A DNA stretch of 64,000 bases from Octopus sinensis (taxonomy: Eukaryota), in contig NC_043023.1 in assembly GCF_006345805.1 (NCBI RefSeq), positions 9,486,001 through 9,550,000 on the forward strand, read 5' to 3'. Shown here piece by piece: positions 24,001 through 64,000 of this stretch (the stretch's first letter is position 1; every line of letters starts with the position of its first letter). A program made the position numbers.

Positions 24001-27000
24001 ATGTATATGTATATATATACATACACACATACATATATACTATAAATATATATTCACATATATATGTATTTTCTCCATGTAAACTACAGACAAAATAGTT
24101 TTTGAATTTTAACCGTTGTCTGCGAAAATTGTGACACACCACACACACACATATATTATATATATATATATATATATATATATATATATATATATATATA
24201 TATGTTTAATTGGATAAGCGTGTATATGTGCGCGTGTGTAAATGCGACTATATGATTGCTTGTGCCTGTAAAAAATGCATAAGTAGTTTTATATTTCATT
24301 TATGTATCTAAGAGTGTGTATCCATTCACCGTTACACGGTAGCGAGAGGGACATGTACATATATATATATATATCTTCCTCTCAACACCTCACAAGCGGT
24401 GTAACGGTGTATGGATACAATGTCTTAGATGCATAGATGCTAACAATTGTAAACCTACTTATAAACGTGTGAACGTATGTTTATGTACAGATATGTACAT
24501 ACACTTGTGTTGTATACACACAGACAACCTTCGACAGAGTAAGAGTCATATATACAACTTATGTGTATATACAACATATATGTATCCACATATCAGTACA
24601 TGAACATACATTCACATTTTCAAGTACATACATATACACAGAAACGTCTGTACACATACTTACAAACGTCTACAACCTTACATACCTACATAACTACATA
24701 AATACATATGAACATACATATATGGATAGGCATGTACACATATACATACGCTCATCCTTACATGCACACATACGCACACATACATACATATATACATGCA
24801 TACATACATACATACATACATAAATACATACATACAACATACATACATACATACATACATACATACATACATACATACATACATACATTCATACATGTAA
24901 ATGCATACTAAAGAATATTACAGCCAAATAAAGAAATTTTGACCTCAGAACTCTCTGAATTCAATAAAACAGTGGGCCCACTAAGTGTTTGCAGTGCCAG
25001 TTCTCTTATCAGCATTTCGGCCGCTTGATTGGACGCTTGATAAGATCCATTGATGTGAAAACCCAAAAGATACTACAAGCACACATAATTTTTCACATAA
25101 ACTGTGACGTAGCCCTCCCTTACCTAGAACGAAAGCAAATCGGCAGAAGCTTAACGTCGATCCGAAATGTCTTTGAATGTCGCATCATATCTCTTGTGTA
25201 ACATCTTTTACCACCGAGTGTCAAAGTGCATCTCTTTGCCAAATGTGCATAGATGAGGCTGATAACATCATAAGACTTGGAAGGCAGCTCCTTGAGCCAC
25301 ACTCTGTCTGATAACCTAGAATACATGGCGAAAGATGTCACACGAGTCTATTGCAACTTATTATCAGATGAAAGGATGAGCCAATATGAGCAGCAGACTA
25401 TGCATCGATATGTTAGTAGAAAGTTAACATCGATCATCAATATTGTTTATCATGTACCAACAGCCGGATTACTATCTCCCACTTTGAAGAGTATGCATTT
25501 GCAATCCAGGAACAGGAAATATCAACCAAGAACCTGATGCACAAAAGCGATAGATATGTGGGACAAACCGTAAAATATGACAAACGGATGCAGAATTTGT
25601 GGATTTCACACTGAGGATATCACCCACATTAAAGCACTTGTCCGAAAATGTCATCTACCGATGAGACATGTCATTAGGTAAGCCACGATGTACTACGATG
25701 TAATCTACTCCATCTGAAGGATAATCCGGAAGACAAAGAAATAAACCGTCCAATATAGTAGAAGCCACAGCCTCTCAAAATGAAAAGGAACGTACCAGTG
25801 AAAATCTAAAAAAATGTAAGCTCGGCAGACCTCATATAATGATTTGGGATAGAAAGAGAAACCGTGCACATGGTGGAAATTAGCTGCCCAGCAGATGATG
25901 TTAACGTAAAACGGAAGATTAGGGAAAAAGAGAGCACCTATGCTGAACTATTGCGAAATCTACAGTTACTCTGTCCAGAATACAAGTTCATATCCATTGT
26001 TAATTACAACGAGGTGGGTCTCAATCCCTGCTTTATAGCATTACAGAGAGGGTGAATTATCCTTTGTATAGATGCACAAATTCCAATGGGGTAGATGTAA
26101 ATTTCCAGGAAATGGAGATGAATTTCATATTCACAGGCGATAAATTTTTCAATGGGTGAACACAATGAGGTAGGATCAATCTCCTGTTATATGATTAGGT
26201 ATTGCCACATTAATCACATTACTGCTATTCACAAGAGGCTGTAGCTATTTAACTCTTAAAGGCTGAAGGGTTTCTAGAGCGGCCAAGAATAGAGAAGGGA
26301 ATATTCTTGGCCGCTCTAGAAAGCCCTTCAGCCTTTAAGAGTTAAATAGCTACAGCCTCTTGTGATAGCAGTATGTGATTAATGTGGCAAATACCTAATC
26401 ATATACCAAGGATTGATCTACCTCATTGTGTTCAACCATTGAAAAATTTATGCTGTGAATATGAAATTCATCTCCATTTCTCTGGAAATTTACATCTACA
26501 CCATTGGAATTTGTGCATCTATACAAAGGATTAATTCACCCTCTCTGTAATGCTAATAAGCAGGAATTGAGACCCACCTCGTTGTAATTAACAATGGGAT
26601 AAATTTGTCTTCTGTGAGTATATAATCCCTCATCATATCTATGGAATGCATATGGATTAGGTCACCTTCTCTGTGATGCTATCAAAACTTTTTTTAAATT
26701 CTGTGATAAGACTGTACATCATCTTTAAAGAACTAGATGAACTTTAGAAATCTGTTTATGTTACTTAATTATCTACATTACTTCATGAGTATAGCCTCAA
26801 ACACTAGGATGTCTAGAGAACTCACATGTATTTTAGCTGATGAGTACGGGGACTCGTTTATATGCTGTAATCTTTGCAATTTTATTAAAACCTGTCCTTG
26901 TATGAAACGATCGTACTAAAAACCTATCCATTCTTGTTGCTTCTTTCTCGCGTATATATATATATATATATATATATATATATATATGTACACACACCAC

Positions 27001-63000: not shown

Positions 63001-64000
63001 CCACTGTTTACGATGTTTAACTTTTCGATAGAAAAATCCATTTTTCGTCACCAGTCACAAGTCTATACAAAAAAGGTGAAATGAGTTCGCGAGAATGGAG
63101 AGAAGAGCAGATGTCAACTCGGGATTTGCGGCTGCTTTCGGGCAGTTCATGAGGCACCTATTTTCCACGTTTAAGAACCTTTCCAAGTTGTTGAAGAAGA
63201 CGATGAACAGTTGTATGGTTTGAACTAAGCTTTATTGCCAATTCTTCAAACGATATTGCATGATTTTCTTCTAGGAGCTTATCATCAAGCTCAACTGGAC
63301 GTCCTGTTCAATCTTCATCTTCAAGGCTGAAATCTCCACTTATGAATTTTGCAAACCATCTTCTGCAAGTTCTTTCATTCTAGCATTCTTGTATGTTTCG
63401 AGTCGTTTCGGCTGCAGAATTTCCCTTTTTGTACTCATAAAGCATTGTGTGTCTTAAATACTCGTTGGATACTTCAATGTTAGAAAGGGTTTTAATTAAC
63501 GAAATTTCATTTCTATTATTCTGTAAAATAATATTTAATTAGTTTAAATGTACACAAATTTATTAAAAATAATTTTTAATTCCATTAGACATTCTAATTT
63601 ACTATTAAATTCCATTCAATTTTAAAAGCTGTAAAATCGGACAGAACTTATGGGATGATCTGATAGACGAACACAAACGCATGCAATGAGACACAGACAG
63701 TCACATATATACACATATATACACATATACTCACAAATATTTCTATTCGGATCTATGCAATTATGATTATCATCATAATCACCAGGATCATCTTCCTCAT
63801 AACCATTACCATTTTCTTTCCAGGATTATGATTATTAATCCTTATCTATACTAATAATTACTTATGTTAACATCATCCTTATAATCATCATTATCATTAT
63901 CAACAGTGATGTTATCACCATCGTTGGCAGCAATCCCACTATGATCAACATTACCAGCAATGTCAAAGCCCACACAACCACATAATCACCATCATTACTA

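What the first reader, a model, noticed from the sequence alone, without database searches (positions are those of the whole stretch)
26950..64000. Intragenic ~12.7-kb tandem amplification adding 7 LRRs per unit
Seen: three near-identical units that contain only LRR exons, with no recognisable signal peptide, cap, TM or stop exon. Inference: these are expansions inside one gene rather than gene copies, so protein length would vary with copy number, as with LPA kringle repeats. Unit-specific substitutions suggest the copies are real.
Basis: partly seen in the sequence, partly recalled or inferred. Interest (0 to 1): 0.8.

Follow-up and report, generated by a model that had tools for sequence, protein, structure and literature searches.

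The report
Tandemly amplified block of LRR exons
A 12.7-kb piece of DNA carrying seven small leucine-rich-repeat exons has recently been copied head to tail at least three times in an animal genome, which shows how such repeat proteins grow, but whether one working gene reads all the copies cannot be told from this window.

Summary
From 26953 to the window end there are two complete copies and one cut-off copy of a ~12.7-kb unit, joined head to tail at the same microsatellite junction. Copies differ by 0.4-1.3% in substitutions. Each complete unit carries seven plus-strand LRR exons. Across the 20 exons, 20 of 20 have a CAG acceptor, 19 of 20 a GTAAGT donor, and 18 of 20 are exactly 72 nt. All sit in intron phase 2, so any run of them, including across the unit junction, stays in frame. 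No other exon of this kind, cap motif or other domain was found in the window.

The unit is itself built from older duplications at 93% and 66-79% identity. Three exons are damaged: one is 70 nt, one is 71 nt, and one has a GT-to-AT donor change. Since the amplification, exons have changed no more slowly than introns.

My best reading is a real, recent, in-frame multi-exon amplification inside an extracellular-type LRR gene of an animal, partly decaying. The gene's ends, its expression and any copy-number polymorphism remain untested. This is a known kind of event (72-nt phase-2 LRR exon duplication) at an unusually large unit size.

The parts
26953..39710 (+). Unit 1 (12758 nt), the left-most and most diverged copy. 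Exon order is A B C D A' D' E.
39711..52430 (+). Unit 2 (12720 nt), complete.
52431..64000 (+). Unit 3, cut by the window end after 11570 nt. Its seventh exon would lie beyond 64000.
26953..27074 (.). Left edge of the array: (TA)n GTA (CA)n (TA)n microsatellite. The same sequence opens units 2 and 3.
39674..39850 (.). U1/U2 junction: (CT)n at the unit end abuts (TA)n(CA)n(TA)n at the unit start (approximate limits).
52402..52575 (.). U2/U3 junction, built the same way as the U1/U2 junction (approximate limits).
27561..27630 (+). U1 exon A. It is 70 nt, 2 nt short near its 3' end, which breaks the frame.
28896..28967 (+). U1 exon B, 72 nt.
30829..30900 (+). U1 exon C, 72 nt.
32354..32425 (+). 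U1 exon D, 72 nt.
33022..33092 (+). U1 exon A'. It is 71 nt (A4 where units 2 and 3 have A5), which breaks the frame.
35009..35080 (+). U1 exon D', 72 nt.
39228..39299 (+). U1 exon E, 72 nt.
40341..40412 (+). U2 exon A, 72 nt.
41716..41787 (+). U2 exon B, 72 nt.
43569..43640 (+). U2 exon C, 72 nt.
45103..45174 (+). U2 exon D, 72 nt.
45779..45850 (+). U2 exon A', 72 nt.
47767..47838 (+). U2 exon D', 72 nt.
51950..52021 (+). U2 exon E, 72 nt, but its donor reads ATAAGT instead of GTAAGT.
53067..53138 (+). U3 exon A, 72 nt.
54427..54498 (+). U3 exon B, 72 nt, with three amino-acid changes against U2 exon B.
56278..56349 (+). U3 exon C, 72 nt.
57742..57813 (+). U3 exon D, 72 nt.
58417..58488 (+). 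U3 exon A', 72 nt.
60205..60276 (+). U3 exon D', 72 nt.

Best explanation
This is a real and recent tandem amplification, with at least three copies. The array runs off the window, so there may be more. The amplified 12.7-kb segment carries seven cassette exons, each encoding one 24-residue 'typical' extracellular-type leucine-rich repeat. It most likely lies inside a single LRR gene of an AT-rich, repeat-rich animal genome.

Shown:
- The copies share one head-to-tail junction, where a (CT)n tract meets a (TA)n(CA)n(TA)n tract. The array's left edge lies in the same microsatellite.
- Every exon has a pyrimidine-rich acceptor ending in CAG, and all sit in intron phase 2. A complete unit of seven 72-nt exons, as U2 has, adds 168 residues without changing the frame.
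- The unit itself came from older rounds of duplication of one exon-plus-intron module: A/A' and D/D' blocks at 93-94% identity, C/D at 78%, and the other types at 66-79%.

Inferred:
- The copies arose by unequal exchange or replication slippage at the microsatellites and are being partly homogenised by conversion. Tracts of 2 kb are identical in all three copies, while the left-most kilobase of unit 1 differs by 4%.
- If transcribed, the array lengthens one continuous LRR solenoid.
- The three damaged exons must be skipped (skipping keeps the frame) or they end the protein.

The damage, together with equal exon and intron change since the amplification, suggests the newest copies are under little or no selection.
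For: - Tandem structure and shared junction.
- Exactly 20 exon hits, all on one strand and all inside the array.
- Splice signals, lengths and phase.
- LRR identity, tested exon by exon: Pfam LRR_8 is the top hit for 7 of 7 types. For exon D, the best solved-structure matches are LRIG1, LGR4, decorin, biglycan and the FSH receptor.
- Older nested duplications.
- Past protein-level constraint among exon types: dN/dS is below 1 in 13 of 15 pairs (0.24-0.96), 2.10 in one pair, and undefined in one. Only 23 codons are compared, and dS is near saturation.
- A/A' share a 133-nt tract without any change, covering the acceptor and the first 57 nt of the exon, against 4.3% divergence elsewhere.
- Uneven divergence along the units, of the kind I would expect from gene conversion in a real array (general knowledge, not a call).
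- A Tc1-type transposase remnant sits in the intron after exon A and again after A', so that duplication copied intron and exon together.
Against: - No exon other than LRR exons is seen. The 25 kb upstream show no signal-peptide-plus-cap exon by motif search, so a gene around the array is not demonstrated.
- 3 of 20 exons are damaged. Each short exon, if included, leads to a stop in the next exon.
- Since the amplification, exon substitutions are not rarer than intron ones: U1-U2 3 of 501 vs 139 of 12054; U2-U3 3 of 432 vs 47 of 11124.
- 2 of the 64 U1-U2 indel events fall in exons. By my own arithmetic, about 2.5 would be expected from the exons' share of the unit length.
- The identity of the D and D' exons belongs to a 416-nt identical tract, so it does not show exon-specific constraint.
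- Stop-free 23-codon stretches are common in this sequence (36% of plus-strand positions), so open frames alone say little.
- No transcript, read-depth or ortholog data could be consulted.
Confidence: 0.58

Rival explanations
1. The array is a dead or dying fragment. An internal piece of an LRR gene was amplified, but it is no longer (or never was) part of a translated message. It is a pseudo-exon array evolving neutrally.
For: - 3 of 20 exons are damaged, with stops following the short ones.
- Exon and intron change are equal since the amplification.
- No first exon, cap or other domain was found in the 27 kb upstream or within the units.
- The neighbouring receptor gene also carries a frameshift, so the region may be decaying as a whole.
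Against: - 17 of 20 exons keep exact length, both splice signals and all the LRR scaffold residues.
- Older paralogous exon types keep the LRR pattern, with dN/dS mostly below 1.
- The copies are so young (0.4-1.3%) that too few changes have occurred to detect selection.
- One-base indels in A runs could be assembly errors.
Confidence: 0.22
2. The copy number is an assembly artefact. The genome has fewer copies (or more), and the assembler mis-built a repeat. Some differences between copies are allelic differences or read errors.
For: - 33 of the 64 U1-U2 indel events are single bases.
- The 71-nt exon differs from the others only by the length of an A run.
- A conserved receptor gene at 1397-1760 has its reading frame broken, with a run of 7 A (1540-1546) at the point where the frames switch. 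This fits homopolymer miscalls.
Against: - The head-to-tail junction occurs twice, with slightly different microsatellite lengths and no gap.
- There are three distinct versions, with 110, 11 and 39 private substitutions. Two alleles of a single copy cannot give that.
- Divergence ranges from 0 to 4% per kilobase in a block-wise pattern. I would expect conversion tracts to look like this and random error not to (my judgement, not a call).
Confidence: 0.12
3. Each unit is a separate small gene (tandem gene copies) rather than part of one gene.
For: Only that a short first exon and an alternative end cannot be excluded. Every exon is followed by an in-frame TAA within the donor (TTG|TAA or ATG|TAA), so an unspliced exon would end the reading frame at once. 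AT-rich introns also offer many chance start codons (one search lists 12 such ORFs upstream).
Against: - No cap motif, membrane segment or other Pfam domain was found in the unit.
- The unit's last exon has the same donor phase as all the others, and the next unit's first exon has the matching acceptor phase.
Confidence: 0.04

Closest known systems
LPA kringle IV type 2 coding repeat (human)
   Same: A multi-exon unit several kb long, repeated head to tail inside a gene and in frame, so copy number sets protein length. [quoted passage not shown]
   Different: Here the unit is 12.7 kb with seven exons rather than two (the two is recalled). The domain is one continuous LRR solenoid, not separate kringle beads. 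Polymorphism, expression and even the surrounding gene are unknown. 3 of 20 exons are damaged.
One-LRR-per-exon genes with 72-bp phase-2 exons: brown-alga ROCO genes and the gonadotropin receptor genes
   Same: Exons of 72 bp in phase 2, each encoding one LRR, spread by exon duplication and shuffling. The algal exons are alternatively spliced. The same paper reports, citing Koo et al. 1991, that the gonadotropin receptor introns are all phase 2 (PMC11378527, passages read). Exon D's matches to solved structures include LGR4 and the FSH receptor.
   Different: Those cases describe single-exon duplication over long times. Here a seven-exon, 12.7-kb block is amplified at ~99% identity. The ROCO proteins are cytoplasmic and algal, while this window is from an animal (adhesion-receptor neighbour). 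No GTPase or 7TM part of the LRR gene is visible.
Tetrahymena arrays of exactly 90-bp LRR exons
   Same: Tandem arrays of equal-length LRR exons separated by phase-2 introns. The authors explain them by unequal crossing over, possibly helped by retroelements (PMC6564038, passages read).
   Different: Those exons are 90 bp against 72 bp here. The organism is a ciliate, and the arrays occur in thousands of genes. No higher-order multi-kb unit appeared in the passages I read.
Exon modularity of human LRR domains allowing exon skipping (NLRP3 and others)
   Same: LRR exons that can be left out without breaking the frame (PMC6642158, start of the abstract in a search listing only). The same property would let the damaged exons here be skipped.
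   Different: That family is intracellular, with longer LRR exons (length recalled). No amplification is involved there.
Lamprey variable lymphocyte receptor cassettes (recalled, no call)
   Same: Many LRR-coding modules clustered at one locus.
   Different: As I recall, those cassettes lack splice sites, lie in both orientations and are copied into the gene somatically. Here all modules are on one strand and have canonical splice sites.

Membership tests
Leucine-rich repeat, 'typical' 24-residue extracellular class | Repeat of about 24 residues with the core LxxLxLxxNxL | tested here: met
   Each exon plus its split codon gives 24 residues with L/I-x-L-S-x-N-x-I-x-x-I/L and a later F/L and L. 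Pfam LRR_8 is the top hit for 7 of 7 exon types, all below the curated cut-off because each is a single repeat.
Leucine-rich repeat, 'typical' 24-residue extracellular class | Cys-rich N- and C-terminal caps and a signal peptide flanking the repeats | tested here: not met
   Motif searches on both strands of the whole window found cap-like Cys patterns only in low-complexity DNA. The start-codon ORFs with a hydrophobic stretch are unconvincing. These parts may lie outside the window.
Coding variable-number tandem repeat of the LPA kind | Multi-exon unit repeated head to tail with the reading frame kept across units | tested here: met
   7 x 72 nt per unit in U2 and in the six exons seen of U3, all phase 2, and E-to-A matches in phase. 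Unit 1 has two short exons, and unit 2 has one dead donor.
Coding variable-number tandem repeat of the LPA kind | Copy number differs between individuals and changes the size of an expressed protein | not testable with these tools
   No reads, other individuals or transcripts were available.
LGR / glycoprotein-hormone-receptor type genes | 72-75-nt phase-2 LRR exons followed by a rhodopsin-type 7TM exon | tested here: inconclusive
   Exon size and phase fit (the phase-2 statement is in PMC11378527). LGR4 and the FSH receptor are among exon D's matches, but so are LRIG1 and decorin. No 7TM lies downstream within the window. The only 7TM piece (1352-1920) is upstream and of the secretin/adhesion class.
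Mutually exclusive or competing-RNA-structure exon clusters (Dscam type) | Conserved complementary intron elements that pair to select one exon | tested here: not met
   Duplex energies between exon-flanking intron segments were no better than for shuffled sequences (z from -2.07 to +0.69 in 14 comparisons).

The most novel reading that the evidence does not exclude
The array is an expressed coding macro-repeat in an invertebrate surface receptor. Its copy number differs between individuals, and its symmetric cassette exons are used in varying combinations. Copy-number change and exon skipping together would then generate a range of LRR ectodomain lengths and binding surfaces. This would be an animal counterpart of the brown-alga ROCO exon arrays, caught while still expanding.
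Probability: 0.15. Interest if true: 0.65.

Novelty: new member of a known kind. Interest (0 to 1): 0.35.

Why it matters
If the array is real and transcribed, it shows three layers of LRR-domain growth at one locus: a single exon, then small blocks, then a 12.7-kb seven-exon block. The breakpoints sit in microsatellites, and the newest layer is only about 1% diverged. That would make it a good place to measure how fast a binding solenoid can change length, and whether copy number or exon choice varies between individuals. If it is not transcribed, it is an ordinary young segmental amplification in repeat-rich DNA. My four literature searches turned up no report of a multi-kb, multi-exon LRR unit amplified in an animal gene. 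They were narrow, however, and no supplementary files could be opened.

Tried and rejected
1. RNA pairing between the conserved intron flanks, which might loop out exons or bridge introns. Duplex energies were not better than for shuffled sequences, so I dropped this.
2. Further, more diverged LRR exons or an upstream continuation of the array. There are none. A sensitive BLAST of unit 2 against 1-26952 gave only short repeat or microsatellite matches. One of them is a 90-nt match (77%) between 26860-26946, just left of the array, and 49865-49952 inside the unit.
3. Cap, signal-peptide and membrane motifs. Nothing was convincing.
4. Other domains in the long D'-to-E intron and the end of the unit. 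0 of 10 ORFs hit Pfam at E<=0.01, and one chance-level hit had E 0.086.
5. RNA genes that might date or place the sequence. There were 0 Rfam matches and 0 tRNAs.
6. Exon-specific conservation of D/D'. I rejected this because the identical tract is 416 nt long.
7. Open reading frame as evidence of coding. This is weak, since 36% of 23-codon windows on the plus strand are stop-free.

Not done:
- The exons were searched one by one only.
Orthologs, the organism and the rest of the gene stay unchecked.
- I do not take the contig for human. Its receptor fragment matches human adhesion receptors only distantly (best E 7.5e-12 over 55 residues).
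Full report
**What is in the sequence**

The window has no N and about 34% G+C. Self-BLAST shows long direct matches from about 26950 to the window end, at offsets of 12.4-12.8 kb and about 25.2-25.5 kb. One match, 37475-44857 vs 50190-57561 (98.7% over 7406 nt), runs across the end of one copy into the next. The U1/U2 and U2/U3 junctions are therefore the same junction.

Read directly, each unit ends in a (CT)n tract that abuts the (TA)n GTA (CA)n (TA)n tract opening the next unit. The left edge of the array, at 26953, lies in that same microsatellite. I set the units at 26953-39710, 39711-52430 and 52431-64000. The third is cut by the window end, so the array may go on.

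**How alike the copies are**

Differences in the three-way alignment:

| Pair | Substitutions in introns | Substitutions in exons |
|---|---|---|
| U1-U2 | 139 of 12054 | 3 of 501 |
| U2-U3 | 47 of 11124 | 3 of 432 |
| U1-U3 | 144 of 11016 | 5 of 429 |

The lower BLAST identities come mostly from indels. There are 64 indel events between U1 and U2: 33 of a single base, 18 made of two letters, and 13 others. Between U2 and U3 there are 20.

Divergence is very uneven. The first kilobase of U1 has 39 private substitutions, while alignment columns 8000-10000 are almost identical in all three copies. Private substitutions total 110 (U1), 11 (U2) and 39 (U3). Three distinct versions sharing one junction cannot be two alleles of a single copy. 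From general knowledge of tandem arrays, the block-wise pattern is what conversion within a real array would give.

**The exons**

On the plus strand each complete unit has seven short exons, which I call A B C D A' D' E. The cut-off third unit has six.

- 20 of 20 follow a pyrimidine-rich tract and a CAG acceptor.
- 19 of 20 are followed by GTAAGT.
- 18 of 20 are exactly 72 nt.

Each exon begins with the third base of a split codon and ends with two bases, which is intron phase 2 on both sides. Any run of these exons therefore stays in frame. That includes E of one unit spliced to A of the next. A complete unit of seven 72-nt exons, as U2 has, adds 504 nt, or 168 residues.

As a control, the pattern CAG-N72-GTAAGT occurs 17 times on the plus strand, all at these exons, and never on the minus strand. 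A DNA profile of exon plus flanks finds exactly these 20 sites (E <= 3e-24); the next hit has E = 0.43. A peptide profile searched against all six-frame ORFs of 15 aa or more finds the same 20 (E <= 2e-12); the next has E = 2. So there are no further exons of this kind, in the units or in the 27 kb upstream.

**What the exons encode**

I searched the exons one at a time and did not join them for a search or a fold. A single 23-aa exon is too short for the fold tool. All seven exon types have Pfam LRR_8 as best hit (E 3e-4 to 0.07), below the curated cut-off as a single repeat must be.

For exon D, the best solved-structure matches are LRIG1, LGR4, decorin, biglycan and the FSH receptor. That is the common 24-residue class found in extracellular animal proteins, with no one family singled out. 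Three exon types carry an N-x-S/T sequon, a weak hint of an extracellular protein.

**History of the unit**

The unit is itself a product of duplication:

- The 1.7-kb A and A' blocks are 93% identical.
- The 0.9-kb D and D' blocks are 94% identical.
- C and D align over about 560 nt at 78%.
- B and E align to the others only over the exon and its near flanks, at 66-79%.

The A and A' introns both carry the same remnant of a Tc1-type transposase (HTH_Tnp_Tc3_2, E 5.5e-15). So those duplications copied exon and intron together. Growth was stepwise: one exon module, then blocks, then the 12.7-kb unit.

**Signs of selection**

Among the old exon types, dN/dS is below 1 in 13 of 15 pairs, above 1 in one, and undefined in one. 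Only 23 codons are compared, and the synonymous distances are near saturation. A and A' share a 133-nt tract without change, covering the acceptor and the first 57 nt of the exon, against 4.3% divergence elsewhere. All four exon differences lie in the last 15 nt and all change the amino acid. The identity of D and D' exons is part of a 416-nt identical tract and says nothing about the exon itself.

Since the 12.7-kb amplification, exons have not changed more slowly than introns. Two of the 64 U1-U2 indel events fall in exons. By my own arithmetic, about 2.5 would be expected from the exons' share of the unit length.

**Damage**

- U1 exon A is 70 nt.
- U1 exon A' is 71 nt, with A4 where the other copies have A5.
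- U2 exon E has ATAAGT in place of the donor.

Taken exon by exon, inclusion of either short exon puts stops into the next exon's frame. Skipping them would keep the frame.

The one-base case may be an assembly error. The neighbouring receptor gene at 1397-1760 matches the Pfam 7tm_2 profile continuously (positions 148-198, then 199-250), but in two different reading frames. A run of 7 A (1540-1546) lies where the frames switch. That is either a pseudogene or a homopolymer miscall. The 2-nt case sits in the most diverged kilobase of U1, comes with a substitution, and looks real.

**Surroundings**

The window starts with the last part of a secretin/adhesion-class receptor gene on the same strand. 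Both pieces score above Pfam's cut-off, and the best solved relatives are adhesion receptors G2, G4 and L3 (E 7.5e-12). This marks the DNA as animal, and I do not take it for human.

Between 2 and 27 kb lie reverse-transcriptase fragments (RVT_1 E 7e-18 at 20013-20501; zf-RVT at 6081-6809). The same stretch holds long microsatellites and 151- and 190-nt tandem elements. No cap-like Cys motif, convincing signal peptide or other domain was found there or in the units.

**Reading**

The architecture is what an in-frame intragenic amplification looks like, and nothing in a unit looks like the beginning or end of a gene. It rests on absence of evidence, however: no non-LRR exon of the gene is in view, and the newest copies show no sign of selection and some decay. 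My estimates are:

- one gene with a recent, partly decaying amplification: 0.58
- a dead exon array: 0.22
- an assembly artefact in copy number: 0.12
- separate small genes: 0.04

I also tested and dropped the idea that the conserved intron flanks pair to steer exon choice.

**Compared with what is known**

Seventy-two-base, phase-2, one-repeat exons spread by duplication are described for brown-alga ROCO genes. The same paper notes that the gonadotropin receptor introns are all phase 2 (PMC11378527, passages). Tetrahymena has arrays of 90-bp phase-2 LRR exons, ascribed to unequal crossing over (PMC6564038, passages). Exon modularity of human LRR domains as a basis for exon skipping is stated in the abstract of PMC6642158 (listing only). 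The LPA repeat is 5.6 kb per unit with 1-40 units per allele (PMC11462820, abstract start in a listing).

What is less usual here is the size and youth of the unit. My four searches found no animal LRR gene with a multi-kb, multi-exon unit amplified. They were narrow, and no supplementary files could be seen.

**Left open**

The organism, orthologs, the rest of the gene, transcription, true copy number and polymorphism are all unknown. No eukaryotic genome collection was available.

Noticed in passing
window 1352-1920 (+): This is the 3' end of a secretin/adhesion-class 7TM receptor gene (Pfam 7tm_2 positions 148-250; best solved relatives are adhesion GPCRs G2, G4 and L3). The match is continuous in the profile but switches reading frame, and a run of 7 A at 1540-1546 lies at the switch, with no intron signals. 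It is either a pseudogene or a homopolymer miscall in the assembly.
   Followed up: partly
window 40708-41013 (+), 46134-46355 (+) and the matching places in units 1 and 3: A remnant of a Tc1/mariner-type transposase (HTH_Tnp_Tc3_2, E 5.5e-15) lies in the intron after exon A and again after exon A'. This shows that the A/A' duplication came after the insertion.
   Followed up: partly
window 19287-21307 (+) and 6081-6809 (+): Fragments of non-LTR retrotransposon ORFs: RVT_1 (E 7e-18), and the zinc-binding region of reverse transcriptase (E 2e-5, just below the cut-off). The reading frames are broken.
   Followed up: partly
window 12306-13074 and 21773-22392: Two long tetranucleotide arrays, (CATA)n of about 770 nt and (TATG)n of about 620 nt, are reverse complements of each other about 9 kb apart. 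The first gives the strong GC skew seen at 12-14 kb.
   Followed up: no
window 1884-2188, 14191-14755; related ORF text also near 17245-17600: A 151- to 190-nt element occurs in short tandem arrays (2-3 copies, 96-97% matches) and as scattered copies. It is probably a short interspersed repeat of this genome. I did not identify it.
   Followed up: no
window 26860-26946 vs 49865-49952: The 90 nt just left of the array's edge resemble (77%, E 7e-9) a site inside the long D'-to-E intron of the unit. This may be a dispersed element near the breakpoint.
   Followed up: no
all 20 exon donors, e.g. 41786-41793: Because the introns are phase 2 and the donor is GTAAGT, an unspliced exon reads TTG TAA or ATG TAA. 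The frame therefore stops at once after any exon that fails to splice, including the exon with the ATAAGT donor (TTA TAA).
   Followed up: partly
window 4736-5148 vs 9093-9501: Two copies of a ~410-nt dispersed repeat at 95% identity, lying in the region between the genes.
   Followed up: no
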